The notes below the pieces were generated by a model. That model did no database searches and had not been told where the DNA came from. It saw nothing but the letters and a program-made list of their open reading frames with translations. DNA of 64,000 bases from positions 30,957,967-31,021,966 of the forward strand of contig CM120640.1 of assembly GCA_051362555.1 (NCBI GenBank), read 5' to 3'. Below, one piece after another: positions 15,245 through 53,365 of the stretch. The position numbers and the translations under genes were made by a program. Each line of letters begins with the position of its first letter. Position 1 is the stretch's first letter. This stretch comes from Lingula anatina (lineage: Eukaryota; Animalia; Brachiopoda).

Positions 15245-17215
15245 GGCAACACTGGTACCTCTAGCTGCTCTCATCTTCTCCATGTACTGGCATTTGTCGC
15301 ACATCTTGATCTGCAAAATGCAATAAAATGCATATCTATTACAAGGAATGATGTAGTAGCTCATGCTGGCCACAGTGCACTAATTAATCTAGTTTGACAG
15401 CTTGTTAGAGAAGTTTGCACAAAACAACAAGTGAATAATACTATTCAACAAACCAATCAGAAACAAAATCTGTCACTTTATGTCAGTTATGGACAGATGA
15501 TAGATGGACAGTTTAATACTAAGTTAAATTTATACAAAACTGGTGATTAAAAAAATTGTTTATTTGCCTTAGTGTTTTTTCACCCAACACACCACTTTAT
15601 AGGTGTTACGATTTTCTTGTTACAAATTCATCTCATACTTGCCCTTTCTCTCTCTTTCCAAACAAAACAAAGGTATACAACAGTGTTTCCAAAAAACTAC
15701 AATACATGTACTTTCATACAGTAATGACTACAATTGCTGCATACCCATTTGTTGATGCATGTAACCATGCTTCTCCAATAGAAGAAGCTCTCAATTTGCC
15801 CCAGGGTCTTCTTCTGGCCAAATTGGCTTCCCATAGGGGAATTATGACATTCGCGAAATTTTTTCTTTTTCTCATCATTAAATACTACTAGCCTCCTTAC
15901 ACCACTCTTGATATAACACATCTCTGACCCTGAAAATATAGAAAAACAACTCAATTGTACTATTTTAAAACAAGATACATATGTAACAGACGGACTCTCT
16001 GGTTGTGTAAAATGACTTTATTGCTATAACTAAAATTTTCACCCTGTAATAAAGGTGACATATAATTAGATAAAATGACATACAACAAATAACTTATAAT
16101 TCTATAGTTTACCTCTATGATAAGGAAATAATAAATTTGATATAGATAACTACGGTTTATAAAGGCTATAACGGCTTACCCTGATCTTATTCAAGGGCGT
16201 TTAGAAAGAGTGCTGGATATACCAATACGGCTTGGTCTGAAAACTAAAGAGTAGAAAACGATGTAATACAGTATAGTATAGTGGAGTTGGATATGCAAAA
16301 GACAAGATAAAATATAACTAAAATTAACTAGATGACATCCAACTTACCATATAGAAACAGACAGAAGAACAGCAACTTCAGCACTATTTGAAAATATGGC
16401 GCCAATGCCTTTTATAATGAGAAGTCACATGACAAAGACGCGGGAAGACAGAACAAAGGGACATAGACAAAGAAACAGACAAAGGAACAATTAGAGGGCA
16501 TCAGAGTCACAGCAAGTCACAAGACAAGACGAGTGACGAGTGCATATTTACACATAGTTACACATATAATAGCAGATTTCTGGCCTATAAAAATACCAAC
16601 TAGAAAAGGTGCACATCTGTCAATACCAGTACTTTGTGGATAAACAGAAAACAGAACTATGGGATATATGAACAACCAAGCTGTTATGATAAACTTTAAT
16701 AGGTAATATTTGTTTCTGTTGCATGTTAAGAAATGAAAATTGTCTTCATTGGACACCAAATGCAGAGTGAAAATTAAACAAAAGGCACCAGTTACAAAAA
16801 GCAAAAGGCTCTCCATATTTAACTACCTACATTTTCTCTTTTCTAATTTCTTGTGCATGATTATATAACAACATATACTTTTTTCTATTTCTCACAGATT
16901 TTTCAAAATAATTTCATACCACAGGCTTAAATTGTTGAATGAATGTTAGGGAATTAGGTCATGTTTTTTACCATGTTTACCAAAATAACAGAACAGGTAC
17001 AGATTCCAAAAGAAAGTAACATTTGAATATTAAACCAAAATTCATACAAATGGAAAGAACATCATCCTCTTACCTTCACATACTACATGTAGTGTATAGT
17101 TCTTAGCCATTCTCCTAACTGATGCCTTGTGGTTGGCATTCCAACCAGCATCTCCTTTCCCTTCCTGCAGATACTGAAACACATCATCTAGGTTGACCAA
17201 ATGGCGCTCTGCCAT
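15245..17215 (-). pseudogene. Ginger/GIN-like transposase (Gypsy-type integrase), N-terminal half; exons 17215-17074, 15929-15745 and 15310-~15245
   Basis: GT-AG introns with matching phases (1, then 0) splice to MAERHLVNLDDVFQYLQEGKG...KASVRRMAKNYTL..EG/SEMCY...RRLVV...ECHNSPMGSQFGQKKTLGQIESFFYWRSM..CINKW/IKMCDKCQ. This is an integrase H2C2 zinc finger with the second His replaced by Gln. No RT or RNase H upstream. Ends in satellite after a frameshifted PVLPW. Confidence 0.8.
15982..16562 (-). mobile_element. Solo LTR (Gypsy-type), 581 bp, in the intron between the first two integrase coding exons
   Basis: TGTAAC...GTTACA termini; 4-bp TSD CATA (15978-15981, 16563-16566); AATAAA on the minus strand near 16016-16022. 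Confidence 0.75.
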
Positions 17216-17236
17216 GACTGAAAGTAGTATAAGTAT

Positions 17237-18945
17237 AGTGACAAGAAGTCTGTAAAACAGATCCTGGTACAATCCAACACTCCTGATGACAGTAGGTGAA
17301 ATAGTGACAAGAAGTCTGTAAAACAGATCCTGGTACAATCCAACACTCCTGAAGACAGTAGGAGAAGTAGTGACAAGAAGTCTGTAAACAGATCCTGGTA
17401 CAATCCAACACTCCTGAAGACAGTAGGTGAAGTAGTGACAAGAAGTCTGTAAACAGATCCTGGTACAATCCAACACTCCTGAAGACAGTAGGTGAAAGTG
17501 ACAAGAAGTCTGTAAAACAGATCCTGGTACAATCCAACACTCCTGATGACAGTAGGTGAAGTAGTGACAAGAAGTCTGTAAAACAGATCCTGGTACAATC
17601 CAACACTCCTGATGACAGTAGGAGAAGTAGTGACAAGAAGTCTGTAAAACAGATCCTGGTACAATCCAACACTCCTGAAGACAGTAGGTGAAGTAGTGAC
17701 AAGAAGTCTGTAAACAGATCCTGGTACAATCCAACACTCCTGAAGACAGTAGGTGAAGTAGTGACAAGAAGTCTGTAAACAGATCCTGGTACAATCCAAC
17801 ACTCCTGAAGACAGTAGGTGAAGTAGTGACAAGAAGTCTGTAAAACAGATCCTGGTACAATCCAACACTCCTGATGACAGTAGGTGAAGTAGTGACAAGA
17901 AGTCTGTAAAACAGATCCTGGTACAATCCAACACTCCTGAAGACAGTAGGTGAAGTAGTGACAAGAAGTCTGTAAAACAGATCCTGGTACAATCCAACAC
18001 TCCTGATGACAGTAGGTGAAATAGTGACAAGAAGTCTGTAAAACAGATCCTGGTACAATCCAACACTCCTGAAGACAGTAGGAGAAGTAGTGACAAGAAG
18101 TCTGTAAACAGATCCTGGTACAATCCAACACTCCTGAAGACAGTAGGTTAAGTAGTGACAAGAAGTCTGTAAACAGATCCTGGTACAATCCAACACTCCT
18201 GAAGACAGTAGGTGAAAGTGACAAGAAGTCTGTAAAACAGATCCTGGTACAATCCAACACTCCTGATGACAGTAGGTGAAGTAGTGACAAGAAGTCTGTA
18301 AAACAGATCCTGGTACAATCCAACACTCCTGATGACAGTAGGAGAAGTAGTGACAAGAAGTCTGTAAAACAGATCCTGGTACAATCCAACACTCCTGAAG
18401 ACAGTAGGTGAAGTAGTGACAAGAAGTCTGTAAACAGATCCTGGTACAATCCAACACTCCTGAAGACAGTAGGTGAAGTAGTGACAAGAAGTCTGTAAAC
18501 AGATCCTGGTACAATCCAACACTCCTGAAGACAGTAGGTGAAGTAGTGACAAGAAGTCTGTAAAACAGATCCTGGTACAATCCAACACTCCTGAAGACAG
18601 TAGGTGAAGTAGTGACAAGAAGTCTGTAAAACAGATCCTGGTACAATCCAACACTCCTGAAGACAGTAGGTGAAGTAGTGACAAGAAGTCTGTAAAACAG
18701 ATCCTGGTACAATCCAACACTCCTGAAGACAGTAGGTGAAGTAGTGACAAGAAGTCTGTAAACAGATCCTGGTACAATCCAACACTCCTGAAGACAGTAG
18801 GTGAAGTAGTGACAAGAAGTCTGTAAACAGATCCTGGTACAATCCAACACTCCTGAAGACAGTAGGTGAAGTAGTGACAAGAAGTCTGTAAACAGATCCT
18901 GGTACAATCCAACACTCCTGAAGACAGTAGGTGACAAAAGTCTCA
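17237..18945. repeat. Minisatellite, 65/66-bp unit, ~26 copies, with a 720-bp internal higher-order duplication
   Basis: Unit AGTGACAAGAAGTCTGTAAA(A)CAGATCCTGGTACAATCCAACACTCCTGA(A/T)GACAGTAGGTGAAGT starts at 17237, 17303, 17369 and 17434. The variant pattern from 17281 recurs at 18001. Confidence 0.95.
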
Positions 18946-18980
18946 AAATACACTCCTTACATACAGATTGAGAGCAAGTC

Positions 18981-19351
18981 CAGGCCTACTCAACTACCAG
19001 ACTCGGCACCTACGGATCCAGAATAAACCGCTATGATCAAACCTAATTGCTCCTCAAGGTCACAAAACTATAACCGGTACTGACGGCTAGGCTTGTCTTT
19101 ATCATATAAGTAGCGCGTTTCCACCCCCTGATTGAGGGAGTCGTCTGTCGTCATGTTGTTGTTTTCATACGACTCCTACTTGACGAAAACGAGGCACGAT
19201 ACCCGGATGACAGGTAGGCTTACAAAATTTGTGATGGGGTATGATACTCTGAAATGCGATCTGACACACACCTTGAAAACGGGTAGTGTGGTCTGATATA
19301 CTGGTTAATTCTGGAACCGTAGGTGCCGAGTCTGGTAGTTGGGTAGGCCTG
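18981..19351. mobile_element. 371-bp MITE with 49-bp TIRs and 5-bp TSD
   Basis: TIR CAGGCCTAC(T/C)CAACTACCAGACTCGGCACCTACGG(A/T)TCCAGAAT(A/T)AACC; AAGTC duplicated at 18976-18980 and 19352-19356. Confidence 0.9.
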
Positions 19352-19519
19352 AAGTCTTTCATCTGATAAAAATGATTGACAGTTACTGAGGACAGGGCAT
19401 AATTACAAGTAATTGAACTTAACCACTTGAACTGGACAATGCAAGAAGCCATACAGTCTTACTTATCATCACCATAAGGTATACTTCAAAATCACCTAGA
19501 AAATGTCATCTAGATTTTA

Positions 19520-19998
19520 TGAAATGAATTGAATTGAAGGAGCAATGTGGACCATATGTGGACCTTCATATATTGATATACTCCTGTAAATGACGATTTT
19601 CCCATACTTACCAATGGTTTATGAATCCGTTCCAACATTCAAAGTTAGCCCACAATTTTTTATAAAGTTTTGATTTATTTTTATAATCACTTATGTAATA
19701 ATATGACTCTCAAGCTAAAAGGTGGTATCCCTTTAAATATATTAAAAAAATAAAATAAACTTTTTAAGAAAAGCTACTGCACTAACTTTGAACAGATGTC
19801 AGAACAGATACATTTATAAATTCAATATATTGGAGAAGTAAAATTATATGCTGGGTTTAATAATTATGTCTTTATATTGGGCATTAATAGTTAACCTAAA
19901 ATTTTTTAATGTATTAACCAATGGTAATTATAGAAAACCGTCCTTTACCCCAGGAAAACTTCCTTTTAAGCCAAAATGAACAGTTCTTCTTCCTTTAA
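19520..19998. mobile_element. Two decayed relatives of the 5785-6081 TTAA MITE in opposite orientations
   Basis: ATTTTCCCATACTTACCAATGGTTTATGAATCC...CATTCAAAGTTAG (19536-19588) ending in ATCCCTTTAA (about 19736), and a reverse copy ending CAGGAAAA...GCCAAAATGAACAGTTCTTCTTCCTTTAA (19998). Confidence 0.55.
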
Positions 19999-20318
19999 GA
20001 AAACTTGAGAACACTTACCATTTACTCAGGTTATCCACAATAACATTGTCCAGTTGGAAGCCACCACCTTCCATATCAGTCATTTTAACAGACATAACTG
20101 CTAAAAATAAAGATAATTAAACTGATATATATTTCACTTTCATTTATAAGGGCATGCAAATCAATTACCAAAACTATGGAAATTATTGCATTCATAATTA
20201 AAATTTTTATTTTAAAAAGAGGTCTTTAAAAGTACTTTAAATATTAAATACCTTATAGTCATAAACATTACTGACTTGGCCATCCTGAGGTGTCAATAGC
20301 GACTTTACAGTTTCATTT

Positions 20319-22510
20319 GCTGTGGCATCTCATCAACTGAATTTTCTGTATTTGCTTCAAATCATTCTCTTGGTCTTAGTTTTCCCTAGATGTCCAACTT
20401 TGTGACCAAGTCGGATAATTTTCTCTGAAGTTTCTTCTTAGATTTTTTTTTCTCCTCAAGACAGCTATCGGCCTTCATCCTGATTACATATAAATATCTG
20501 AGATTACTTTTCTTTCAGGACAGCGATCCACCTTCATCCTGAGCACATACAAATTTTTTCAGATTACTTTTTTTTCAGGACAGCGATCTGCCGTCATCCT
20601 AAGAAAATATAAAATATCTCATATTACTTTTTCTTTCAGGACATTCATCCGCCTTCATCCTGAGTACATATAAATATCTCATATTACTTTTCTTTCAGGA
20701 CAGCGATCCGCCTTCGTCCTGAGTACATACAAATTATTTCAGATTACTTTTCTTTCAGGACAGTGATCCGCCTGCATCCTGAGTAAATATAATATATCTC
20801 ATATTACTTTTCTTTCAGGACAGCGATCCGCCTTCATCCTGATTACATATAAATATCTCATATTACTTTTCTTTCAGGACAGCGATCCGCCTTCATCCTG
20901 AGTAAATATAAAATATCTCATATCACTTTTTTCAGGACAGCGATCCGCCTTCATCCTGAGTAAATATAAAATATCTCATATCACTTTTTTCAGGATAGCG
21001 ATCCGCCTTCATCCTGAGTACATACAAATTTTCTGAGATTACTTTTCTTTCAGGACAGCGATCTGCCTTCATCCTAAGTAAATATAAAATATCTCATATC
21101 CTTTTTTTCAGGACAGCGATCCGCCTTCATCCTGATTACATACAAATTATTTCAGATTACTTTTCTTTCAGGACAGCGATCTGCCTTCATCCTGAGTAAA
21201 TATAAAATATCTCAGATTATTTTTTTTTCAAGACAGCGATCCACCTTCATCCTGATTGAACTGTCTCTTTAATAGATAATCTTTTAAGTAAGCTGGTTGT
21301 CTGATTGTTCTCTTTGGTCTGGTGTAAATTGGTTCTTCAATATGATCACCGTTTCACTTGCTGTGGCATCTCACCAACTGAATTTTCTGTATTTGCTTCA
21401 CATCATTCTCTTGGTCTTTCTTTTCCCTAGATGTCCAACTTTATGACCAAGTCGGATAACTTTTCTCTGAATTTCTTCTCAGATTATTTTTTTCTCCTCA
21501 AGACAGCAATCGGCCTTCATCCTGATTACATATAAATATCTGAGATTATTTTTCTTTCAGGACAGCGATCCGCCTTCGTCCTGAGTACATACAAATTATT
21601 TCAGATTACTTTTCTTTCAGGACAGTGATCCGCCTGCATCCTGAGTAAATATAAAATATCTCATATTACTTTTCTTTCAGGACAGCGATCCGCCTTCATC
21701 CTGATTACATATAAATATCTCAGATTACTTTTCTTTCAGGACAGCAATCCGCCTTCATCCTGAGTAAATATAACATATCTCATATCACTTTTTTCAGGAC
21801 AGCGATCCGCCTTCATCCTGATTACATATAAATATCTGAGATTATTTTTATTTCAGGACAGCAATCCGCCTTCATCCTGAGTACATACAAATTCACTCAG
21901 ATTATTTTTCTTTCAGGACAGCGATCCGCCTTCATCCTGAGTAAATATAAAATATCTCACATCACTTTTTTCAGGACAGTGATCCGCCTTCATCCTGATT
22001 ACATATCAATATCTGAGATAACATTTCTTTCAGGACAGCGATCCGCCTTCATCCTGAGTAAATATAAAATATCTCATATCACTTTTTTCAGGACAGCGAT
22101 CCGCCTTCATCCTGATTACATATAAATATCTGAGATTATTTTTCTTTCAGGACAGCGATCTGCCTTCATCCTGAGTACATACAAATTTTCTGAGATTACT
22201 TTTCTTTCAGGACAGCGATCCGCCTTCATCCTAAGTAAATATAAAATATCTCAGATTATTTTTTTTTTCAAGACAGCGATCCACCTTCATCCTGATTGAA
22301 CTGTCTCTTTAATAGATAATCTTTTAAGTAAGCTGGTTGTCTGATTGTTCTCTTGGGTCTGGTGTAAATTGGTTCTTCAATATGATCACCGTTTCACTTG
22401 CTGTGGCATCTCATCAACTGAATTTTCTGTATTTGCTTCACATCATTCTCTTGGTCTTTGTTTTACCTAGATGTCCAAGTTGGATAACTTTTCTCTGAAG
22501 TTTCTGAATC
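20319..22510. repeat. ~1040-bp tandem duplication (2 full units plus a third start), each unit containing a ~60-bp minisatellite and Gypsy integrase fragments
   Basis: GCTGTGGCATCTCA.CAACTGAATTTTCTG at 20319, 21360 and 22400. Minisatellite CAGGACAGCGATCCGCCTTCATCCTGAGTA... with about 13 copies each at 20455-21255 and 21495-22295. Confidence 0.9.
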
Positions 22511-23290
22511 CTGTCATTTCTGTAAATGAGTCCTTCAATAATACTAAATTCTTCTCTCATGTGCCAGTATGGTTCAATCTCCTCATCTTTTCTGTATAGA
22601 TTCCAATCTCTTGTTGAGATTCTCCCTCCAAGTTTGATTAGTGTTGGGTCAGTGAGGGTTTTTTCTGCTATCTCTTTGAGAATCACTGCATTTTCAGATT
22701 TTACCATCCATCTGATCATCCTCTCTGTACTATCACCACCCGTTTGTGGCTGTGGCTGTCTGGAGAGATAATCAAGAAGGTCTGCATCATTCTTTCCTGG
22801 CTCATATACCACATCATGGTCAACACCTTGGAAGTCCATCACCCATTTCTGTATTCTCGATGGTAATTTTGCTTGTACTTTGTTAAACCTGGGTGGATAC
22901 TTATGGTTTGTGTGCTGTGATAATATTGACCTTTGGAGCACCCTGTAGGTATATTCTCATCCTGTACTTTGCCCATCTTACGGCCAATGCATCTTTTTCC
23001 GTCTGTGAATATTTCTTCTCTGTATCTGTCAGTGCTCTGCTCTGCTTTGTCCATTTCTTGGAACAGTCCTGCTGACAACCCTTCGTTAAAACTGGCTTCT
23101 GTTCTCAGTATTATTAGTTTGCCTGGTTCAAAGAAGGCCATTGTTTTGCTGCTGGTGATAGTTTCTTTTAATGCATTTCTCGAAGGCTTTTTCTTCCTCA
23201 TCTCACCAACGGAATTTCACATCTTGCTTGGTCAGTTCTAATAGTGGAGCAGTCAGTGAGGCATAATCCTCTATAAAGTTGTCTAGGCAT
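22290..23290 (-). pseudogene. Degenerate Ty3/Gypsy pol fragment: RT thumb, RNase H and start of integrase, fused to the pol C-terminus
   Basis: LDNFIEDYASLTAPLLELTKQDVKFRW; MAFFEPGKLIILRTEASFNEGLSAGLFQ; LPSRIQKWVMDFQGVDHDVVYEPGKNDADLLDYLSR; PYWHMREEFSIIEGLIYRNDRI; GHLGKTKTK; then RPKRTIRQPAYLKDY (about 22310-22365). Frameshifts and stops present. Confidence 0.88.
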
Positions 23291-23816
23291 GGATGTCTTG
23301 GATCACCTATATACACGTCCTGAAAAAAAATGGGTTCATTTGAGATGTATGTTGAATAACCAATTAATAAATAACATTCATTATTATCAATTTAGCTTGG
23401 CATCCTAAGTGAATTTTTGAAGGACATTCATTGTAATTTTACATCTTCAGCAGTCCAGCATGTCTCAACATGAGAAGCAACACTATATTTGAGAATGGTG
23501 AAGCCCTATTCACAGTATACTTGGCTACGTAATGTACGAGTTCCTAACATGCAAAGCAATACTGCACTGCAGTTGGAGGACTATGGTTTAATAGAGAGTT
23601 ATAAAGATTCGAAGGACGAAGCGAACACTGCAAAAATCCCCACAAGTAACTTATATACTAGTAGTAGCTCTAAGACAAGTACATCATAGAAACCCTATTG
23701 CTACTTATTAACTCTGCTAGTGCTTTTAAAGGTTTACCTCAGATGTTTCCAGGAATCCAGATCTACTGTATAACACCTATAACACTGGGATCAGCGGATC
23801 CCTTTGTCTACCCCTT

Positions 23817-25429
23817 CAGGGTTCTCCCCAGGCCTTTATAACGTATCGGCAGCGATACGCATTTCTTTTTGCCGATACGCTTCTTTTTTTGCCGACACGT
23901 TTCTTTAAGGTAAAAATTCAGTTCGGTGAAGTTGCAAGGTTGGCTGTCTGACCAGGGAATTATATCGAATTATGACGGACAGGTCATGATTTATGAGAAA
24001 TTTGGAGCAAAAATCTTTTAAAAAATCATTTTTGATGCATACTAACGTCTTTTTCTCTTCCTAGACGGTACTGAAAAGAGTGACCTACTTTTGGCACAAA
24101 ACACATGCAGTCGCAAAATGAATTGTGAACAAACTTACCGCCAAATTATGAAAGTGAACACCCTCCAGAACTTCACAAGACAAAATTTATTCACATAACA
24201 GGCTCACTACTGAATATTTATTTGGTTAAAAATCTTCGTGCTCTAGAGATAAAGACCGTTCCAAAAACAGAAACTACACAAGTACTGTGCAACAGCCAGA
24301 TTGATCTGGATGAACTAGATATATCTAGTTCGTTGTCAAGGCAACATACTGCCTGTCAATCAAATACGTTGTATGCTATCTACTTACTATAGAACGTGAA
24401 ATCTTTGGGACTGAAGATCTTGTTGAAATATTGTTTATTTGCCAAAATAAAACATGAAATTTTGTATGATGTTTTCTTTAATGACTTTAGCATCACCTAT
24501 ATTATTTACAGTTAAAAATTTAGTGCTGGAATATGATAAATTAACATTGCTGTCATATACCCGTGTGATATTGATGTAAGTTAGATATTAGTAATAACAA
24601 ATATGAGAATTTAAATAAAAAGGGGGACTTTTTTATACTGCTTTTATTTAACTCATATATTAAAAAAATCAAACACATGATAACCCCTAAAAAGTTGAAT
24701 TGTTAACATAAATATAAGTAAAGTATTATAAAATGAATATTCTTTAATTTTTCATTGAACTTTATTCAAATATTATAAATTTTGAATATTTTAATAAAAT
24801 CAATCTGACAGTACCCCCTCCCCACCTGTATTTTTTTTAGCTTTGGTTAAACTTCATGTGAATTTATTATCAAATTGCAGATTTACAATTAGTAGACCCT
24901 GTACCCAAAATCCTAGGAGAAGCCCTGATTGAAACTATGTTAAATCATACTTATATGCAAGATTAAATCTTCAAGAGTTCACAAGTATGAAAAAAAACTT
25001 TTTATCTGAAAATGAATCCACTTTAAGGTGCATTTTCCAACTCATTTGATTGAATGTCTTGGTAATAAATGCATTAAATGTATGACTACAATTATTTATT
25101 TACAAAGTTCAATTAATAGAATGAATAGAAAAAAATATTGGTTTTGTTGGGCAGGTTGGATTGAAATTCGGACAGGTGCTCATAAAAGTTAGTGTCTAGC
25201 CCTGATTTTTCTGCAAAATTTGGTCCTGCACGTGGGCTATGTTGTAACAATTTAATGACAGCTTCAGATTGCATGGGATTGCACCCTTTTTGCATGAAAT
25301 AATAAAAATTTTACCTCCGGAGGGCACATCCCCGGACCCCCCCCCCCCCCCTTTGTACCTCGCTTCGCAAGCCTCGGTACTCTCGCGAAAAAAAATAAGG
25401 GCTATTTTCGATTCCTGGGGAGAACCCTG
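23817..25429. mobile_element. 1.6-kb non-autonomous DNA transposon with 16-bp TIR and 7-bp TSD (hAT- or P-like)
   Basis: CAGGGTTCTCCCCAGG ... CCTGGGGAGAACCCTG; ACCCCTT at 23810-23816 and 25430-25436; an extra end-like motif CCTAGGAGAAGCCCTG at about 24912-24927. Confidence 0.88.
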
Positions 25430-25448
25430 ACCCCTTGTATCTGCAGCT

Positions 25449-25478
25449 CCTTCTTCTTCTTCTTCTTCTTCTTTTCCT

Positions 25479-25512
<34 letters not shown>
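25449..25512. repeat. (CTT)n/(CT)n polypyrimidine microsatellite
   Basis: Direct reading. Confidence 0.9.
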
Positions 25513-25516
<4 letters not shown>

Positions 25517-26157
25517 GGAAAACCCCAAACTTTCCGGTACAGATAACTACAACAATGTACTCACCCTTCTGTCATCAAGAATGTCTTTGCGTGCATTAAA
25601 AAGGATGCTGGAATCGTGGAATGTCCTGCTGCTTCAGATCAAACTTTTACTGTAACCCCTAACTATATCCTTGTCCTTGGTATAACGTGTGAAAATGTTC
25701 CCGCTCCGCCGAACCAAGGAGTTATAACAGTTATAACTCCTTGGCCGAACTAAGCCCGACTTTAAATGTACATGTGGGTCAAATAAAACCCGCAGTGAAT
25801 ACTGGGTCACATCTCGGTACATTCGGGCACACGAAGCGCCGCAGTTTTTCTCTGCGTCCAAGTTATTATATATATATATATCGCTTAAATGTGATATATT
25901 ATTGATAATTGATGGAGAATATAATTACTACATAAAAGGTAATTTTAAATTCTTTTTTTACCTTTTTAACTTTTTTTATTGTTATCATATATTTTCTTTT
26001 TGCTTTAACTTTGCTCATAGACAATTAAATTATTAGCTGGATCTTAGCACTGCTAACATAACGCTCAATTTTAAGGAGGAAATGGAGCATTTACGGACCT
26101 TCGCATTAAAAGAAATTACCTTTAAAAGTATACTAAACTTACTTTAAAAGACCTTAA

Positions 26158-26321
26158 GGATCGATCCATCTCCAAGGGGTTTCTCGCTAAATTGCTTTCA
26201 GATGAAGCGGGTTAGATGTCTGTCACGCCTACTGAAGCTGCTAGGGGAATTATCGTTTAGCATCTAAACCGCTTAAGTTGATAGCAATTTACTGAGAATC
26301 TACTTGGTGATAGATCGATCC
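26158..26321. mobile_element. Small foldback MITE (GATCGATC-ended family)
   Basis: Imperfect inverted arms GGATCGATCCATCTCCAAG...TCTCGCTAAATTGCT / AGCAATTTACTGAGA...CTTGGTGATAGATCGATCC. Confidence 0.6.
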
Positions 26322-27837: not shown

Positions 27838-27850
27838 AGGAGAGAGAGAA

Positions 27851-27881
<31 letters not shown>

Positions 27882-28154: not shown

Positions 28155-28156
<2 letters not shown>

Positions 28157-41812: not shown

Positions 41813-42307
41813 CAGGGCCGTAGCCTCCGGGGGGGGGGGGGGCGGGGGGGGGGCGGGGGGGGGGGCAGTTGCCCCCCCCCCCCCCCCTGGGATTTGAGGT
41901 GCAAAAAAATAATCGCAAAGGTGAATGAAAATAATTGCAAAATTGGTATCAATTCTGTGAGAAAATGCGCTCATGGCCACTAGACAATCATTCAACAATC
42001 TGTTTACAAAGGTGTACTGTTTTTAGACAATCTACGAAATGAAGTACAATTGGCATGTTGTGTTGAAAAATGACTGTACCTATGGCAAAATGAACCCACA
42101 ATTTCTGACTTCTGATTTAGCAATAAATAACAGTTATAATGCACCAGAATTCAGTATTATACATACAGTTTTTTAAAAATTTCCACACCGTGGGAGGGGG
42201 ACCCCCCCCCCCCCCACACACACACACACCCTCCCCCCTCGGGGGCTTCGCCCCCTTGTGTCCGCTTACTGCCCCCCCCCTGGCATTTTGCTCAGACTAC
42301 GGCCCTG
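41813..42307. mobile_element. ~495-bp hAT-like MITE with poly-G/poly-C subtermini
   Basis: TIR CAGGGCCGTAG / CTACGGCCCTG; imperfect flanking repeat GCCCACACA / ACTCACACA. Confidence 0.8.
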
Positions 42308-44624
42308 ACTCACACAAAATTTTACAATGAAATATTAAACCGGTAGTACTAGCACAGTGCTCTACCTGCACATCACTTGATGATAATTTTACAACAATTA
42401 ATTTTATTTTCATAGATCACTTAAGCAAGTCATTTTTTGTTTAAGGATAACTTCAAAAGTGTCGTTTCAGGTTCGGGAACTGGTGGGCATGAACAAAAAA
42501 TAAATAAATCACAATGAAAACATCGTGTGCGGATAGAGTACTGTACTACAACTTATTTACACATGTATAATAATAAGCGAGCGACGTGCAGGGTTGACGC
42601 TTGGATTTAGTCAATTTTATTAGAAGTTTCATGAATAAAACATTTGTTGCACGCTGCACTTCATTCGATACACGTTTTGATGCAGAAAATTACAACCCAA
42701 AGCAAACATTGCATTTCAAACCAAATCAAATGTCAGCCCTGCAAGTTGACTATACGACAAACGCAAGACAACGTTGACATGGGTGCGGGCGCTGGCGAAC
42801 ACGAATCTGACGTCTTTTCTGGGAGTGCGTCTAATCTCAACGTAGACGGTTGTTACGAGACACTGAAATTAAATGAAAAATGAAATAAATTAAACAAAAT
42901 CCATGTGAGAGAAAAATTATCTAGTGAAATACAATATTCATACCGACCCTTTTTGGTATGTATTAAGAGATATAAAAGTCACATTATATATATAAGAATA
43001 GATATATCCTCGGTATATTGAACCTACACGTTCTATACAATGACATCATTACTATTGCATACCCTGTACACACTGTTACACGTCAACATACTAATATTTA
43101 TATTTATCTATCTTTGCTAAGCCATATCCCTCCACAAGGAGTATTGTGATGGAGACTGCATATTTGCCCACATAGATAATTTTATCATAAAAACAGAAAA
43201 CCGGCCGTACAATCACGCTGCTCTGTATACCAACTATTACAAAAGATATCAGTGTTTGGACTTTATATATTTGCGGAATTAAAAGTAGATAAATGTAAAC
43301 ATTTTACAGAAAGCCTAGTTTTGATAAAGATAACTCTGGATTTTGTAAATGCGGGGATCAGGGTTACAATGTAGTAATATAAAATTGTTTCGGTTCCGTA
43401 GGATAACATAAAACACTGGTCAATGACAATTAACATGTTGTTTATAGGGCACAAGGATGCAGAAAGTGTTTGGTTTTTGTCTTGTTTTATTTATGCATTA
43501 TATTGCTTATTTTGTGAGTAGTCTGACATAAATTCAGCATTTTATTGCTACATGTGCTTATTAAAACCACTTCGCTTTTATAGACAGAAAAAGAATGATT
43601 TTACCAATTACTTGATTCCAATTCAGCCACTTAATTAATTTTGTAATCCAAACACTAGAATTTTAGCTCTATTTCTTTTAAAATCAGATACTTTGTTCGA
43701 GCATTTTATTCCCGATTGTAAAATCAAGGATGGAATGAAATTGAATCATGAAAATTGAAGTCAAGGGAGGTCGACAGTGTCTAGCAAATGTACGTTTGCT
43801 TTCCTGGTCGAGGTTAGTTCTCTAGAAAACCACTGGTTTGTTGTCAGTTTACTTTAATAAACAGGATAATTTTGTACAAACCGCTGTCGTAAGATAAAAA
43901 AAAAGGCACCCATTGGGAGCTGAGAATGCACCGATAGTTACCTGCTTTGTCGCCTTGCTTTGTTTAAGACGTATTAACGCGTTCAGACCTTTGGACGGCT
44001 GGGATAATCTTTTCACTTCTTTATGAGCAAATACTTTTTTTCTGGAAAAGGCAACATAAAAAGTTATTTAACTTTTCAAGCTCATTTCGGCATTCATGTC
44101 AATGAAATATACCCAAGAACAATTACCCCTGAAGTGGGAAATGCATACTTTTTGACAAAATATCGTCAACATAAACCGATCAGTGTTGCCTTATGTCATC
44201 TTTACAGTACTTACAACAAACTATATCAGTTCTCAGTGCCAAAATTTCAGTTTACGTGTGGAAATTGTGACAATGTGGCATATAAAGCTTCTTCCTCTTC
44301 CTCCTGACCTTGGCCCTTTCTGAATACCTCTCACCAAATGCTCACCTGGTTACATAATAGTATCACTGTCGTGGGATTGTGTTAGAGAAGACACATTGTT
44401 GTTTTCCCTCAATCTAAAACGCTACCATCAGGTTATTATACAAACAAGCCATTTTGTTTTGCCTATAGACTTTCATCCCAAATGAATGAGGTTATTTCCA
44501 ATTAAAACATGAATGAGACTGTTTTAAGACTAGAAGAATTACAAGGCACAAAACCATAGACATAAAAATTTTGCACTCTGAACTTGACCAAACGATTACC
44601 AAATCAACAGGAGGCAGAATATAA

Positions 44625-44919
44625 AGCGCCATTCAGAATATATGATCCCAGTACTATCTGATCCGCCGACTAAATATGGCCGACCACACTTCAAAAGTTT
44701 TAGAGATGTCGCTGATTCCTAATAACCTCCCCGCCTCTACAAGCGCCATGAAATGGATCAAATCTTGGCTCCGAGGTTTAATTGCTAGGCCCCTGCAGCG
44801 ACGGCGCATGTGGAGGCGGGGAGACCATCCAGAAACAGCGGCACCTCTTTTGAAGTGTTGTCGGCCATATTAAGTCGGCGGATCAGTTAGTACTCGGATC
44901 ATCTGTTTTGAATGGGGCC
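44625..44919. mobile_element. ~295-bp PIF/Harbinger-like MITE with ~75-bp TIRs
   Basis: CCATTCAGAATATATGATCCCAGTACTATCTGATCCGCCGACTAAATATGGCCGAC...CACTTCAAAAG mirrored at about 44846-44919; TAA/TTA flanks. Confidence 0.85.
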
Positions 44920-45534
44920 TTAGTGAGGAGTGAGGGTAACCACTGAGAAAGTAACAATAACGCAGGAGGGCGGGTCGACGAAAAATTACGCGCATGGAAC
45001 TGTGCATCAATTGAGTGGTGTCTCGGCCCTCGGATATAAACGGCGCAGCAAAGACGTTCTTGTTTGTCTGAATTTCATTGTGACACCAGTGAGGATAAAT
45101 GTTTATGTATCAATCTGTATGAATGTAAAGTTTATATGCACAAACGCGAAAACGACTATGAGTTTTTGTTTTCATCATCCATTTCATCCAGCTATTTTTC
45201 TTTGTGAATGCATTTTAATGAATTACAGGTTCTTAGCTCAGACGTCTCCTCAAGTTCACCTTGCCAGTTTTGTTAAATGCCGCTGCTAACGCGTTCCTGG
45301 AAAATGCTAACTTTTAGGTGACTTCCTTTTTAATCATAATCTCCAAACACCTTTTCATTTCAGAGCTTAATGATTTTAGGTTATATTTGCTTTGCATTTT
45401 TACCTCTCTATATAAGGAGGAGTTCTTCCAGCTTTTCCTCCAAATTCGTGGTTTGATATTTTGATATGAAAACCCAAAATTTAAAGTTGTTTTGCTAAAA
45501 CAGAAGTAGAAGCAGTCTACAAGCGTCTGTCTCG

Positions 45535-48500
45535 GTAGATCTTAGTTACTACAGTATTTTATTTATATGTAAAATATGGCTATGGCGTATTGTCAGATCA
45601 ATTTTACTTCTAGGTTCAAGTCAGAAGATCATATATTAATGCTGATTTCTCTTCATAAACGAGCTAAAAATAGGTATGCCACCTGCCAAAATTAGTTCTT
45701 GAACAAAGTAACCATGGTAGATCGTAATTCATTATTTAAGTTACATGTAAAATATGGCCATAATTTATTGTCAGATCAGTTTTACTTCCAGGTTTAAGTA
45801 AGAAGATCATATAATATTGGTAATTTCTATTAAACTAGACAGCAAAGCTGGCAAATATACAGACACCATACAGGAAACAAGGCAGCAAAGCTGACAAACG
45901 TTCAGACACTACACAGAAAAAAAAGTGTACCAAATAATGTTTTGGCCAATTTTGATGCACTGCTACATAATACGTAAAAGCAGCATAATCACTTACCCTC
46001 TTACATTATTTACTACAGGTAACAGGGACATTGAAAAGCTACCAAATGATTCAGTTCCATGGGATATAAAAGCCACTGAAAATGCTTATATGTGAAAAAT
46101 AAAAAAATTCACACAAAAAAATAATAATTACCATAAATGTAAACAGATCTTGGCTATTTTCAAAGTAACCTGGCTCTTTACCAAACAAAACCACTCAGTA
46201 CATCTAGAGTAAAACAAAAATACAGTTCGGCAGTTATGGGGCAAACATTACAAAAATTGTGAAAAAAAAAAAACAGAATAATTACCGTAAATGTAAACCA
46301 ATCATGCTGATTTTCCAAACCAACCTGTCTCTTTACCAAACAAAGCCACTCAGTGAAATAAAAGGAAAACAAAAATACGATTCAAGAATTATGGGTTGAA
46401 TGCCACATAAACTGTGCAAAAAAAAAAAAAAAAAAAACAGAATAATTATCATAAATGTAAAGCAACCATGGGGATTTTCAAAAGCAACCTGCCTCTTTAC
46501 CAAAAAAGCCACTCGGTTAATTAAAAGTAAAACAAAAATACAGTTTGAAAGTTATGGGGTGAACTTCAGCAACAACGACGGCACAAACAAACAGACCAAT
46601 CAGAATATATACAGACATTTACAGTGTCTGTATATAACAAGGCAGCAAAGCTGTCAAATGTACAGACAAAAAACAGGAAATAACTATGCACAAAATAGGC
46701 TACTGTCAATTCTGATGCAAAAGTACATTATGTTAAACTGCAGATTCAACATCAAATTTTAATTATGCTCAACAGGTAATACCAATGTAAGTAAAATGTT
46801 ACAAGTTCACACTTTGAAAATGTATAACTTCCAGAAAAAGAAGCCAATTAGACTGCTTTTCCAACTCAGGCTGCATTTTAGTCCTGTATTTCTTTTTTGA
46901 AAGTTAGGCAATCATAAGTAACATGGTTTTCCCATAATGGTCCCCATGGCAGCAGTGCCCAAAATACGTTTTTTTCAAAATTTGATGCAATATTACATAA
47001 TGTTTAACAGCATAATGACCATCAATTTTAATAATAAAATATTAGTATTATGGATATTCAGAAAATGTGACTAGCAAAGGTCTTCAGGCCCATGGAACTT
47101 CAAAGTCACAACTTGAAAATGCCAAAATGTAAACAAGACAGCACTGTTCTGAAATGGTTTTTTTTATTTTTAACAATTTTTAACATAACACAAAATTAAC
47201 AGTTTACTGCCGTTTTTATATGATCAACTAAGGAAATTGATGAGATGGGAAAAATATCAATAGAGCAGTGTTAAATGTCCAATTTCTTCCATTCTGAGAT
47301 TCTGAACATAGTGAATGATTGAATCTGACAAACTGCAATGATATGAGTTTATTTCCATTTTTGAAACTTTATTACACAATACATGATAACAAGTTTACCA
47401 TCATTTTTACATAATCAACTAATAATGTTGTAAAGATGCAGGAAATGCCAAACAAACACTTTTACGTATCTTATTAATTAAATAATGAAACTGTTAACAT
47501 GGCTAAGAATTGAATCTGAGGAAATGTGAAAAAACGGCATTTCTTTAAAATAATGGCCCGATTATGCTGTTTTTCTAACTCAACCTGCGTTTTAGCAGGA
47601 ATGACCACTCCTGTGAGTTTAATGACAATTGGCCTATCTGTTTTTCTTATATTGTGTTTACAGTGTTGCATATATGCTGAAAAGTGAAAAAAAAGCATAA
47701 CTACTAAGAAAATGGCCCGATCATGCCGATTTTTGAACTTGACCTGCATTTTATGAATATTCATCAGCTCTGTAAATATATAGTCAAAAAGTAAAACTGC
47801 CTTCCACTTATCGTGTTTACAATGAAAGTTCACGTCGCCGGCGCCGGCGACATGGACAGTGACGGCAACGACAGATGCAGGTGATGGCAATATGTACAGA
47901 CACATCTGTACATATTTACTGTATTGTTTGAGAACAGTAAGTGACATGGTTTTTCTTAAATGGTCATTATGGGAGCAGTGCCCAAAATAGTTTTTTTTCA
48001 AATTTTGATGCAATATTACATAATGTTTAACAGCATAATGACCATCAATTTTTAATAATAAAATATTAGTATCATGGAAATTCAGAAAATGTGACTAGCG
48101 AAGGTCTTCAGGCCCATGGAACTTCAAAGTCACAACTTGAAAATGCCAAAATGTAAACAAGTCAGCACTGTTCTGAAATGTTTTTTTTCCATTTTTAACA
48201 ATTTTTTTAACATAAAACAAAATTAACAGGTTACTGCCATTTTTATACGATCAACTAAGAAAATTGATGACATGGGAAAAATATCAATACAACAGTGTTA
48301 AATGTCCAATTTCCTCCATTCTGAGATTCTGAACATAGTGAATGATTGAATCTGACAAACTGCAATGATATGATTTTATTTCCATTTTTGACACTTTATT
48401 ACACAATACACGATAACAAGCTTACCATCATTTTGACATAATCAACTAATAATGTTGTAAAGATGCAGGAAATGTCAACCAAACACTTTTACATGTCTTA

Positions 48501-49600
48501 GTAGTTAAATAATGAGACTGTTAACATGCCTAAGAATTGAATCTGAGGAAATGTGAAACAAGACAGCACTGTTCTGACATGGGTTTATTTCCATTTTTAA
48601 CACTTTTTTTAACATAAAACAAAATTAACAGTTTACTGCAATTTTTATATGATCAACTAAGAAAATTGATGAGATGGGAAAAATATCAATAGAATAGTGT
48701 TAAATCTCCAATTTCCTTCATTCTGAGAATCTGAATATAGTGAATGATTGAATCTGACAAACTGCAATGATATGTTTATTTCCATTTTTGACACTTTATT
48801 ACACAATACATGATAACAAGTTTACCATCATTTTTACATAATCAACTAACAATGTTGTAAAGATGTAGGAAATGTCAAACAAACACTTTTACGTATCTTA
48901 TTAGTTCAATAAAGAGACTGTTAACATGCCTAAGAGTTGAATCTGAGGAAATGTGAAAAAACAGCAAAACGTCTAAAATAATGCCCCGATTATGCTGATT
49001 TTCGAACTCAACCTGCGTTTTAGTAAGACTGACCACTCCTGTGAGTTTAATGACAATTGGCCTATCTGTTTTTCTTATATTGTGTTTACAGTGTTGCATA
49101 TATGCTGAAAAATGAAAAACAGCATAACTACTAAAATATTTGCCCGATCATGCCGATTTTCGAACTTGACCTGCGTTTTAGTAAGTTTGATTACTCCTGT
49201 GAGTTTCATGACAATAGGCCTAACAGTTTTCCTTAAAATGTGTTTACAGGGTTGCATATATGCTGAAAAGTGAAAAAACAGCATAACTTCTACAATAATG
49301 GCCCGATCATGCTGATTTTTTAACTTGACCTGTGTTTTATGAATATTCATCAGCTCTGTAAATATAAAGCCAAAAAGTAAAACTGCCCTCCACTTATCGT
49401 GTTTACAAGGAAAGTGCACATCTGTGTCTGTACATAAAAATGAGCTGCAAAAATAGATAGACAATGCCACCTGCCAAAATTAGCCCTTGACTACACCTTA
49501 CTAATGTATGTAACGTCTGTCATAGTAGATCTTAGGTATTAAATTTATATGTAAAATATGCTTATGACTTGTCAGATGACAATTACTGCTATGTTTATCA
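45535..49600. repeat. ~180-bp tandem repeat (45535-45830 and 49441-49600) split by the HINE cluster
   Basis: GTAGATC...ATGTAAAATATG...TTGTCAGAT and ATGCCACCTGCCAAAATTAG occur on both sides of the 3.6-kb insertion. Confidence 0.7.
45834..49440 (-). mobile_element. 3.6-kb head-to-tail cluster of HINE family A elements
   Basis: Starts ACTAG-ACAGCAAAGCTG-GCAAATATACAGACAC. First unit ends with microsatellite plus hairpin ATATACAGACA-TTTACAG-TGTCTGTATAT (about 46608-46636). Next unit starts immediately with ACAAGGCAGCAAAGCTGTCAAATGTACAGAC. Further ends at about 47910 and 49435. ~159-bp internal repeats; no TSD. Confidence 0.72.
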
Positions 49601-50304
49601 GGTACTTAATTGTTACTACAATGTTACACAAACAAAGAACATTCCAAGATTGAAAAAATGGTTAATTTACAAAGATTTATTGTGAAACAAATTTTCCTTT
49701 GCTCAGTACAAAAACAATGTCTATTCATTAGAATTACATGTAGTTGGAATGAACAATATATGCAATTTACAGTTAAATTGAACACAAGCAATCATAGGGT
49801 ACAAACAGATAACATCCAATTTATATCAAACAAATTTGAAAACCTACTGATGCAAACTGCCTTTCCCACCTGCTAGTGTAAATTAAGTAAGATCAAAGGA
49901 AATGTTTCAGTCCTTTGATACTAGTGGTTTGTTATATTCAGTCTCTGTTTATGCTGTCCTTGGTACAGTGATAAGTCTCAAAAGATTTCCAAACAGCAGT
50001 GGTTTATAGTTTATATCCAACACCTCAAACATATTGTTCATAATATCCTTTGCACTGGTATGATTAATAAAGAGTATTCAAATTCATTTCATAAACAAAT
50101 TCCTTTCAACATTTACACTTTATCAAGGTCATAAATATACAGATAGGCATGTTCTGAATTGGATATATTTGCAGTAATTGTATCAATTATAGCTAGCATA
50201 TGATAGGCCTCTATGATAGGCCTCTAAGCAGATATAAAGTAGATACTGGAACCACAATGCAAATGGCTGAATGCACATATTACTGTTCAGAAGACATATC
50301 TTAC

Positions 50305-53300
50305 AAAGTTTGACTTTAACACTGATCCAAACTGTCTGCCACCCAAGTTATTTCTTCAGAACTTTCATTCCACCTTCTTATTGAAATACTACTACATTCT
50401 TTCCTTTCTTTGCCTCATACTATCTCTTGTACTTTGCTTGAGACTTTTCAACTTTCTTCTTGTACTGAAAATATATAGTTTATAGAAATTGTATTAAATA
50501 GGGTATGTTTCAGTATAAATGGGAGAAGCAAAGTTCAAGTTTTTGCCATATAAACTTATACTGTGCACAAAGCCAGCAGGATAAATGAAGTTAGCCCCAG
50601 AAATTACAATACTGAACCTGCTGCCATCACTATTCTGTTGACACATTTTTACAAAATTTTCTAAATGTTGCAATATTTTTATGAACAGATTACGTGTGAC
50701 ATCTTTTTTTTCTGTAAAACTTGTGTGAAACCAAATATTGCTCAATGTAAGGGGCTACTCTTTAATCTTGCATGGACCAAAATAAAATACAAAAAAAAAA
50801 TTAAGAAATTAATAGCATATTCAGAGGAAGTTGAACATGTAAGTCCCACATGCATACCTTAGCGTGTAACTCAGTAAGTTGCTGGTGTTGGAATTCCACC
50901 TGCACATTACAGTCTTCTTTGCTGGGCATTGTCACTTCCTTCTCTTTGTACCTCAACTGCAAAATCAGAAATTAATGATCAAAAATGAACAAAATCAATT
51001 ATGTTTATTAATTAATCCACATCTTAAGGTGCCAATACACTCATTATTTTTTTGATGAAATATAAGAATTTCATTTGTACATAATATGCCAGCAATGCAA
51101 TGGTAGACAAGATCAAGATTCATCATCCCTATGATCATAAAAGCAAAATGCATTTTATATTTAAGGGGCCTTGGGCTGTTTTTTATGCCAAAATATAATC
51201 AACAGTCCTTAAGGTCTGGCCAGAATATACACCTAAAAATGCTATTTTTTAGAGTATAAAATATTAGGAGTATATTACCCTTATAAACCCCCATATTCCC
51301 AAAGTAATTACTTTTGGGTCTGCTATCTTAATATGCCTTGCCATCATGCCATGATTTGAACATAGCTCTGGCCTTAGTCTGCTCAAATGATGTTTTGAAA
51401 CAAATACAGGACACCAACAGGCTCACAAGGACAGTGTTCTTGCATAATGCATCTGTATGCATACTATTTACCTTGCATGGCAGCCGAGCCTCCCTGTTGA
51501 ACATCAGGAAAAAAGAACAGTATCCAGTGGCGCAGTTTTGTGCTGTACGATATGCAAAGGTCACTACTCCAGATATACCTTTCACAGTCATTCTACCTCT
51601 CATTATAGTGACTTTTGAGAGTGACACTTTTGAGTGTTTGGTAAAACCGCTCATCTAACTCATTTGTCTGTGGGTGGTGCACAGCTATAATCTTGTGTTT
51701 GATTCCCCACTCTTTCAGAAGGTCATCTAACAGCTACAGAAATAAAATATTTGATGTTAAAATGGATAAATATGTATTTCGGCAATTCAATTTTTGCACT
51801 GGGAGACGTTATGCACATCTTTCCAAATATTTGCTTCTATTGATGCAAAGAGTAAGACTTTTCATGCACAATTGCTGCCCTCCTTGAAAGTTGTTCAGTC
51901 CACTCCATGGTTATAGGGATATCATAACTCAATAAGACAATTAAATAGTGTGGCACTCCTAGTATGAAAAGTAATAACCCTGAGATGTTACATGTCCATC
52001 TCACCTCAGCATTGCAAGCTTCAGACATCTGTCTCCGTCTGACTGCTTTATTCCATGTACACATCACTAATAGTCACTTTTGTATTGCATGTACTGACCC
52101 TATGTAAACCATTAGCATATATACATAGTTCTAAAGTATCCCATTGTATAGAGACCACAACAAAGGAGGGCCTTCCATAGCCCTTCAGTAGTAGTAATAG
52201 GAGGAGCAGTAGTAGTAGCTGTAGCAGTTGTAGGAGCAGTGACGCTGAAATAAAAATCTGGGAGAAACTAAAGGAGTGTTGTGTTCTTCACTGGCTGTGA
52301 AAGGGATATAAAAAATTCCAAAGAATTGCCCATATATGAAAATTATATTTAAAAACATAATCCTACTTAGTCATTTTCTACTGTATTAAACAGTTTACAT
52401 TGATGATAAAAATGGTTATAATTGAGCAGAGTAGGCTTCCAATATTACACATGCTCTAAACTGATTAGTACAGAAATAGATATCACTGGTAATCAGTTAC
52501 ACATTCACAGGCATGCCAACAAAATTGAAGCCAATATTCTCCGTGAAACCTTTATCATATTTGGCATAAATAAAGGGGTGGTGATTGTATCCTTTCCAGT
52601 TTCCAATTTATGCCAAAGACTTACTAATTCTTAATTCATATTACAAATTTTGAGACATTTAACTCATTACAAAATTCTGATCCCTGGTCAGTCAGCAATT
52701 TTTTGGGGGCACCCATTCTGAGAAAAAAAGAAAACATCACTTTAACTTTACCACATAAATATAGGTTAAACAACAAACATTGTATGAAGCATATATTTGT
52801 CTAGCGACAGGTGTGGCAGGTATTGAATTAATTAAGTTTAATACCACCTATTAAACTAATTTCATTATTACCATCTGTACTACAGTATCTTCCACAGACT
52901 TCCAATCCATGAGACAAATATGTGATTCATCCAAAAAATTTCCAACCTATTTAATGTTTTCACACATTTTCTTCAACCTAACAATATAACATATGCACAG
53001 AGCTATTCATTTTCAAAAAAGCATGTGTTATTTAGGATGGAGTAAACAGACACTTGTCACTTGAAAGAATGTCAACGGCATAGTGATACAAATTACTTTT
53101 AAATACATAGTCTTTCAAATGAATTATATTTGACTTACAATTATAAATGTATAATTATTTACTGCTTTCACAATGAATCCTCCAGATTACATTTCAGTGA
53201 AATGAACATAACTGTCAACTATAGAGGAAAGGACCTTGGCAACACTTGCTGCATCCTTAGAAAGAATTGGGAATGTCTCCGTCCACTCAAGGTGTAGTAG

Positions 53301-53365
53301 TCCGACAGAGTGAGGATGTATCTATTGCCATTCTCTGATAACAACACAGGGCCTATCAGGTCAAT
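50305..53365 (-). pseudogene. Ginger/GIN-like transposase, C-terminal half with DD35E core; exons about 53365-53212, 52717-52663, 51733-51472, 50956-50858 and 50464-50305
   Basis: IDLIGPVLLSENGNRYILTLSDYYT/(fs)WTETFPILSKDAASVAKVL; RMGAPKKLLTDQGSEFCNE; LLDDLLKEWGIKHKIIAVHHPQTNELDERFYQTLKS/(fs)FAYRTAQNCATGYCSFFLMFNREARLPCK; 99-bp in-phase exon; YKKKVEKSQAKYKR*Y. Exactly 35 residues separate the second D from E after splicing. Frameshifts, stops and two decayed donors. Confidence 0.85.

What the first reader, a model, noticed from the sequence alone, without database searches (positions are those of the whole stretch)
15245..53365. Intron-containing integrase (Ginger/GIN-like) gene cut inside one exon by a satellite array, with its halves in permuted order
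Seen: the minus-strand N-half ends at ...CDKCQ...PVLPW and runs directly into the 193-bp satellite at about 15245; CCATGG is shared by the Pro-Trp codons and the satellite. The minus-strand C-half begins at IDLIGP directly out of the same satellite at about 53365. Known: in Gypsy-type integrases PW and IDL are only about 4 codons apart, and RT-less intron-bearing integrases define Ginger DNA transposons and the domesticated GIN genes. Inference: both junctions mark one ancestral satellite insertion into one exon. The C-half lies upstream of the N-half, so the window probably spans the junction of two large tandem macro-units, each [N-half]-[10+ kb satellite]-[C-half]. That would be a satellite-loaded giant Ginger, or a macrosatellite that spreads the satellite. 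The ORF track does not show this gene as a unit.
Basis: partly seen in the sequence, partly recalled or inferred. Interest (0 to 1): 0.8.

Follow-up and report, generated by a model that had tools for sequence, protein, structure and literature searches.

The report
Integrase pseudogene split, halves swapped
A dead transposon-type integrase gene in an invertebrate genome is cut in two with its halves in swapped order, each fused to the same satellite DNA, likely because a DNA circle opened inside the gene and inserted into the satellite; this is a known kind of rearrangement, and no giant transposon is evident.

Summary
The core observation holds. A decayed, intron-rich GIN2-like (Ginger1-type) integrase lies as C-half (53365-50340) upstream of N-half (17215-15249) on the minus strand, each fused to the same 193-bp satellite. 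Contigs of public runs bridge the N junction in 3 of 3 DNA runs and the C junction in at least 1 of 3. The monomers beside the two junctions are each other's nearest match, so one exchange likely made both. Corrections: the 'PW' is probably satellite-made (11-13 codons lost, not 4); only 2.4 monomers follow the N-half, not 10+ kb; no TIRs, TSDs or partner halves were found. Rough depth ratios suggest several near-identical copies, with N junctions 1.5-1.9 times as deep as C junctions, which argues against uniform [N-satellite-C] units. Best reading (0.48): the block passed through a circle, opened in the exon, inserted into an old satellite domain and was later copied. The mirror model (satellite circle into the gene, then tandem amplification; 0.30) cannot be excluded without flanking sequence. 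It is a known kind of event (tilapia vasa, human cSDPs); the scan noted similar permuted blocks in other genomes.

The parts
17074..17215 (-). N-half exon A, from the ATG; region of the YPYY motif (decayed); canonical phase-1 donor
   Evidence: weak profile match (E 2; tblastn E 0.04-0.05 to P0014)
15745..15929 (-). N-half exon B, H2C2 zinc-finger region (second His reads Q/F); intron after W as in GIN and fish Ginger relatives
   Evidence: Pfam Integrase_H2C2 E 2.8e-8
15249..15310 (-). 5' part of the cut exon (IKMCDKCQ..., frameshifted near its end)
15241..15248 (-). N junction; the letters reading Pro-Trp are satellite-compatible
   Evidence: bridged in 3 of 3 DNA runs
14417..15248 (-). about 2.4 old 193-bp monomers plus a 3'-truncated 410-bp spacer
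11376..14404 (.). Kolobok-like insertion in a monomer: short TIRs, RR...YY ends, TTAA on both sides
   Evidence: Kolobok features from passages of PMC9587614
10274..11375 (-). further old monomers and spacers
141..9358 (-). old satellite domain: scattered monomer and spacer relics (spacers 67-81% alike) with nested insertions; no C-half
17236..50340 (.). 33-kb interior between the halves, free of the 193-bp repeat; no Ginger TIR pair
45156..45903 (.). sharp CpG change point (0.147 to 0.043 CpG per C); candidate only for the circle-closing or tandem junction
   Evidence: inference
50340..50464 (-). C-half exon G (two stops; ends about 20 codons before where GPY/F would lie)
50858..50956 (-). 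C-half exon F
   Evidence: boundaries match GIN2 isoform gaps
51472..51733 (-). C-half exon E with the catalytic Glu region; frameshift and stop
   Evidence: Pfam rve_3 E 1.6e-5
52663..52717 (-). C-half exon D with the second Asp (TDQG); donor not canonical
53212..53365 (-). 3' part of the cut exon, first catalytic Asp (IDLIGP); frameshift in the window copy
53362..53368 (-). C junction, 3-4 shared letters (ATT/AATT)
   Evidence: bridged in X1
53366..54020 (-). old monomers (with a ~150-bp insert) of the same variants as those beside the N junction
54020..64000 (-). young higher-order array: several 193-bp monomers plus a 410-bp spacer; spacers 98-100% alike, ~5-kb super-period 97%

Best explanation
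A dead GIN2-like integrase gene is cut at one point, its halves lie in swapped order and each is fused to the same 193-bp satellite; the block likely passed through a DNA circle that opened inside the gene and inserted into an old satellite monomer, and the region was probably copied several times afterwards. Shown: both junctions, the order in this assembly, one lineage for both halves as far as the trees resolve it, and the decay of the gene. Inferred: one reciprocal exchange (about 11-13 codons and about 62 bp of monomer lost, a few shared letters, as in end-joining); the circle; the closing junction somewhere in the 33-kb interior; later segmental copying. The integrase is a passenger and marker, not the motor.
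For: Reciprocal joints: two breaks within about 40 bp of coding sequence, both into the same repeat in the same orientation. The monomer before the C junction is closest to the two monomers after the N junction among 50 others (88% and 87% over 76 columns); the 130-150 bp beside it and the second N-side monomer are reciprocal best hits among 40 and 41. The block is a satellite-free island with satellite on both sides, and the left side is an old domain with relics down to 67% identity. A circle gives C-before-N in one step and needs no partner halves; none are in the window. No TIR pair. The same B-A/D-C signature with short losses and microhomology is described for human duplications of 22-3918 kb (PMC7450558, abstract and Results) and a circle for tilapia vasa (PMC3245284, abstract). 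The break predates amplification: the junction contig carries 405 of 501, 570 of 570 and 48 of 48 depth units at 15259.
Against: The window cannot tell which partner was the circle; the mirror model gives the same two junctions. Monomer margins are small (1.5-4 points), and the first monomer after the N junction matches its neighbour best (88%) and the C-side monomer only at 82%. The 62-bp gap in monomer phase is not unusual by chance (about 1 in 3). No donor locus, empty site or closing junction was seen. The losses here (33-39 bp and 62 bp) exceed the 1-27 bp reported in PMC7450558. Satellites form circles readily (PMC7403614, passages), which favours the mirror model. Copy numbers rest on contig depth without a single-copy baseline. 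Linkage of the two junctions over 38 kb rests on this assembly alone.
Confidence: 0.48

Rival explanations
1. Mirror model (the first reader's, refined): a piece of the satellite domain, likely a circle, inserted into the integrase exon, giving N-satellite-C; a unit longer than 64 kb was then duplicated in tandem and the window spans two units.
For: Gives the same two junctions and the same monomer kinship. The split form seems to be present in several near-identical copies. Satellite circles and microhomology-mediated satellite insertion are described in Drosophila (PMC7403614, passages).
Against: Needs an insert of at least 26 kb already holding old relics, and a further step. No long array or C-half in 1-15245. 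N and C junction depths differ 1.5-1.9-fold in 3 of 3 runs, where uniform units predict about 1.
Confidence: 0.3
2. A local rearrangement without a foreign circle: gene and satellite were already linked; a loop from the exon to the satellite was excised and re-inserted upstream, or replication template switches made the same joints.
For: Same reciprocal joints. Repeat families are shared by the C-half's 3' flank and the left domain (159-bp element 94%, 155-bp element 77%).
Against: Those shared repeats have different flanks and look like independent HINE-type insertions (structure as in PMC7492417, passages). Needs an extra junction.
Confidence: 0.11
3. Both junctions are real but the assembly joined two different copies, so the swapped order is an artefact.
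For: Near-identical multi-copy blocks invite mis-joins; no listed contig spans either laid stretch; the window differs from all three runs at several C-half positions (tables 3-4).
Against: The interior holds no long array of the satellite in which to mis-join, and no Ns.
Confidence: 0.07
4. A giant non-autonomous Ginger element loaded with satellite, moved by intact relatives.
For: Diverged relatives of the gene exist in the same runs (contigs about 87-96% alike); the copies are near-identical.
Against: No TIR pair between the region 3' of the C-half and 5' of the N-half; four TSD+TGTNR motif hits, none paired. Known Ginger1 elements are 2.6-7 kb (PMC2836005).
Confidence: 0.04

Closest known systems
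Circle-mediated permuted duplications: human cSDPs (PMC7450558; abstract and Results read) and Nile tilapia vasa (PMC3245284; abstract read)
   Same: Block order swapped around one opening point, short losses and microhomology at the joints, size of tens of kb, no transposon ends.
   Different: Here the acceptor is a satellite monomer, the marker is a dead integrase gene, the losses are larger, the product seems to be multi-copy, and donor and empty site were not seen.
Vertebrate GIN2 and Ginger1/GIN transposases (PMC2836005, parts 1-3 of 5 read; PMC3424704, passages)
   Same: H2C2 region, DDE core, many introns; C-half sister to GIN2 (98/95); exon boundaries match gaps in GIN2 isoforms.
   Different: Frameshifts and stops, split in two, several diverged relatives in the genome; no TIRs, GPY/F, Ulp1 or OTU found.
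Satellite spread by microhomology and eccDNA: Rsp-like in 1.688 of Drosophila (PMC7403614, passages)
   Same: Satellite joints with short shared letters; truncated end monomers that nearly complement each other.
   Different: There small satellite clusters are the insert; here the insert is more likely the gene block, and about 62 bp of monomer is missing.
HINE (non-autonomous Helentron) satellite-like arrays of the Pacific oyster (PMC7492417, passages)
   Same: The window's 159/155-bp elements show a terminal hairpin, a microsatellite, central tandem repeats and T-rich insertion sites.
   Different: No such termini were identified for the 193-bp family; a HINE origin for it is only a lead.

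Membership tests
Ginger1 DNA transposon | Gypsy-like integrase with H2C2 finger and DDE core, no reverse transcriptase | tested here: met
   D, D and E positions present. The Gypsy RT/RNase H piece at 22.3-23.3 kb is a separate intronless fragment.
Ginger1 DNA transposon | YPYY motif upstream of the finger | tested here: inconclusive
   Exon A aligns weakly to that region (E 2); the YP pair is absent.
Ginger1 DNA transposon | GPY/F motif; C-terminal Ulp1 or OTU domain | tested here: not met
   No match in the window with 230 proteins or the 24-protein profile; the gene is decayed, so loss is possible.
Ginger1 DNA transposon | 40-270 bp TIRs starting TGTNR, with CCGG/CCGT TSDs | tested here: not met
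   No long-range inverted pair in 15245-53365; four unpaired motif hits. Ends outside the window not testable.
Ginger1 DNA transposon | Dispersed family of copies | tested here: inconclusive
   Several diverged contigs lie on exon B; transposed copies and segmental duplicates cannot be told apart.
GIN1/GIN2-type domesticated gene | Phylogeny and shared introns with GIN genes | tested here: met
   C-half sister to GIN2 98/95, flagged as a long branch; N-half unresolved, nearest rows GIN2. At least 6 introns; boundaries match GIN2 isoform gaps. Few invertebrate rows were available.
GIN1/GIN2-type domesticated gene | Single copy, open frame, expressed | tested here: not met
   Frameshifts, stops and the split; near-zero RNA depth on the exons in X11 and X14, about 6% of each run read.
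Ginger2/Tdd | Separate clade lacking YPYY and GPY/F; AT-rich target | not tested
   No Ginger2 reference was among the fetched proteins.
Circle-mediated permuted insertion | Two reciprocal junctions with swapped block order, short indels or microhomology | tested here: met
Circle-mediated permuted insertion | Uninterrupted donor locus, empty acceptor site and an internal closing junction | not testable with these tools
   No genome held; only a CpG change point as candidate.
Tandem macrosatellite | Head-to-tail units with equal numbers of both junctions | tested here: inconclusive
   N/C depth ratio 1.48, 1.79, 1.89; no second unit in the window; flanks unavailable.

The most novel reading that the evidence does not exclude
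The split integrase block and its satellite flanks form a recently amplifying, copy-number-variable unit of more than 60 kb, a macrosatellite or a giant non-autonomous Ginger moved by intact relatives, that carries a major satellite to new sites.
Probability: 0.1. Interest if true: 0.7.

Novelty: new member of a known kind. Interest (0 to 1): 0.34.

Why it matters
It is a clean footprint of a large germline rearrangement in an invertebrate: a gene cut at a readable codon, reciprocal joints into one satellite monomer type, fixed across studies and apparently amplified since. Once the flanks are known it could show whether circles feed sequence into satellite domains or carry satellites out. It also records a GIN2-like integrase lineage with GIN2-like introns outside vertebrates. 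It reveals no new mechanism and no working gene.

Tried and rejected
Whole genome: none held, so flanks, copy boundaries and a genome-wide tBLASTn could not be run. Word-index protein search with exon B found nothing (8 candidates); the full HMMER search found 40. No RNA holder listed (no evidence either way). The continuation of uninterrupted relatives across the break was not visible: the loose-end tables were truncated (789 and 71 rows hidden). The shared 159-bp blocks (222-2687 and 46637-49430) looked like macro-unit copies but have different flanks and were rejected as such. The 410-bp spacer as a tandem coding exon was rejected: stops in all three frames over the first 270 bp of the 13 copies translated. 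The 44-bp hairpin at 35016-35104 is not a TGT/ACA end-to-end joint. Rfam: no match at gathering score. In one search the last six residues of the N-half read-through were out of frame; they were left out of the trees (1 row dropped from the C tree, 5 from the N tree for low score or short length). A Pfam scan of other ORFs failed on a coordinate error and was not repeated. Nine paper searches (listings only for most hits) showed no report of a Ginger/GIN gene split in swapped order by a satellite; supplements were not read, and Marin 2010 was seen only as cited in PMC3424704.
Full report
What is there. The window is repeat-rich animal DNA without Ns; an earlier, unchecked note on the same genome calls it a brachiopod. 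No whole genome is held. On the minus strand lie seven exons of one decayed integrase gene in two blocks. The N-half is exon A (17215-17074), exon B (15929-15745; Pfam Integrase_H2C2, E 2.8e-8) and the start of a third exon (15310-15249). The C-half is 53365-53212, 52717-52663, 51733-51472 (rve_3, E 1.6e-5), 50956-50858 and 50464 to about 50340. Most splice sites are canonical; two donors are not. A profile from 24 GIN and Ginger proteins, run over 2943 six-frame pieces, finds these exons and no second N- or C-half. The C-half lies 33 kb upstream of the N-half.

What the gene is. HMMER returned 40 relatives of exon B; the named ones include GIN1, GIN2 (zgc:113436), fish Ginger-like and Gypsy proteins. 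Among 230 proteins, GIN2 rows score best against the N-half (12 of the top 12) and a GIN2 row best against the C-half, mixed with fish Gingers. In separate trees the C-half is sister to GIN2 (98/95, long branch) and the N-half is unresolved with GIN2 rows nearest. Ginger1 is defined by 40-270 bp TIRs, CCGG/CCGT TSDs, YPYY, GPY/F and a Ulp1 or OTU tail, at 2.6-7 kb (PMC2836005). No TIR pair, GPY/F or tail was found. It is a dead GIN2-like, Ginger1-type gene; transposon versus host-gene origin is open.

The junctions are real. Contigs bridge the N junction with 0, 0 and 1 differences in X1, X2 and X5, three studies. A 386-bp X1 contig bridges the C junction; for X2 and X5 no bridging piece is among those listed. 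One of these runs could be the source of the assembly, but not all three. At 15259 the junction contig holds 405 of 501, 570 of 570 and 48 of 48 depth units, so no near-identical uninterrupted copy shows. RNA depth on the exons is near zero in X11 and X14 (about 6% of each run read).

Corrections to the observation. PW to xDL is 4 residues in 84 of 84 matches, but the window's PW sits 13.3 codons after CxxCQ against 19-21 residues in 91 of 94 matches, and satellite contigs match through 15247/15248. The Trp, and perhaps the Pro, is probably satellite sequence, so about 11-13 codons are missing. Five fish Ginger loci (L001-L004, L006) start an aligned block inside that stretch, and a GT-AG intron is visible there in L003; none of 121 GIN2 rows shows an isoform gap there. 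'One exon' is therefore plausible but unproven. After the N junction come about 2.4 monomers, a 410-bp spacer, a 3-kb TTAA-flanked insertion, about 1.1 kb more repeat and then old relics down to position 141. Only the right end is a long array, built of monomer runs plus the spacer, 98-100% alike among spacers and 80-88% to the two nearest left spacers.

One exchange. The satellite stops near monomer position 44 at the C junction and resumes near 107 at the N junction (read), about 62 bp lost. The C-side monomer is closest to the two N-side monomers among 50, and is a reciprocal best hit with the second of them; margins are small and 28-37 of the compared copies belong to one homogenised array. 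Two independent breaks into the same repeat, in the same orientation, within about 40 coding bases are unlikely (inference). Two reciprocal products in direct orientation on one molecule are what a circle leaves when it integrates.

Copy number. Against one diverged relative's contig used as a yardstick (depth 83.7, 62.6 and 8.7; I matched these across runs by shared variants), the N junction is 4.8, 9.1 and 5.5 times as deep and the first C exon 3.3, 5.1 and 2.9 times. This is rough: the tool warns that depth is no copy number and no single-copy baseline was laid. It suggests several copies, near-identical because they collapse into single contigs (985 bp with 1 difference in X5), hence amplified long after the break. 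The N/C ratio of 1.5-1.9 does not depend on the yardstick and speaks against uniform units.

How it most likely arose. Step 1 (inferred): a segment holding the gene closed into a circle. Step 2 (joints shown, route inferred): it opened in the exon between finger and first Asp and joined a broken old monomer, with small losses on both partners. Step 3 (shown in part): insertions and decay accumulated and a young array grew on one side. Step 4 (inferred from depth): the region was copied several times, some copies partial. The mirror model, satellite domain into the gene and then tandem amplification, makes identical joints; it costs one more step and predicts partner halves and equal junction counts. 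A CpG change point at 45156-45903 may mark the internal junction that both models need, or only the end of a methylated domain.

Comparison and verdict. Swapped block order with microhomology is the published signature of circle-mediated duplication (PMC7450558, abstract and Results; PMC3245284, abstract), and satellite insertion by microhomology and circles is proposed in Drosophila (PMC7403614, passages). The scan holds notes on similar permuted blocks in other genomes, unchecked by me; my circle reading was written down before that. Nothing near this place or like this sequence was noted before. This is a real, well-marked instance of a known kind of rearrangement, with an unresolved direction and a possible recent amplification. 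Interest 0.34.

Noticed in passing
window 17236-18934: 66-bp tandem array (26 copies, 97%) directly upstream of the integrase ATG; it produces long spurious ORFs.
   Followed up: no
window 20100-20020, 19495-19463, about 25700-25565 (minus): Candidate upstream exons with AG/GT signals; CpG rises upstream of about 25 kb, as at a promoter. They could make the gene host-like rather than transposon-like.
   Followed up: partly
window 22300-23320 (minus) and 20448-22295: Intronless Gypsy RT/RNase H fragment (Pfam RT_RNaseH_2, E 4e-4) running into a 60-bp tandem array with duplicated pieces of the fragment.
   Followed up: partly
window 11376-14404; also about 5795-6080: TTAA-flanked TIR insertions in satellite monomers (Kolobok-like ends); the 3-kb one is CpG-rich relative to its flanks.
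   Followed up: partly
window 222-2687, 46637-49430, 45832-46637, 6590-7140: HINE-like elements with 159- and 155-bp repeats; the left 159-bp element is inserted in an old copy of the 410-bp spacer.
   Followed up: partly
window 410-bp spacer copies, e.g. 10531-10944: The spacer carries acceptor- and donor-like signals and older versions at 4589-4939 and 6198-6486; it looks like a captured or decayed exon, with stops in all frames.
   Followed up: partly
window 35016-35104: Near-perfect 44-bp hairpin with a 1-base loop.
   Followed up: no
window 18981-19351, 30253-30836, 44622-44922, 26158-27186: Several MITE-like inverted-repeat elements.
   Followed up: no
window about 39480-39660 (minus): tRNA-like box sequences by eye, possibly a SINE; no Rfam match at gathering score.
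   Followed up: no
window 53289, 51604: Small indels in the C-half differ between the window and the public runs, and between runs, so the copies are polymorphic or the assembly has base errors.
   Followed up: no
L001-L004, L006: Fish-type Ginger loci in metagenome contigs with at least four to five introns, more than the 0-4 tabulated for Ginger1 in PMC2836005.
   Followed up: partly
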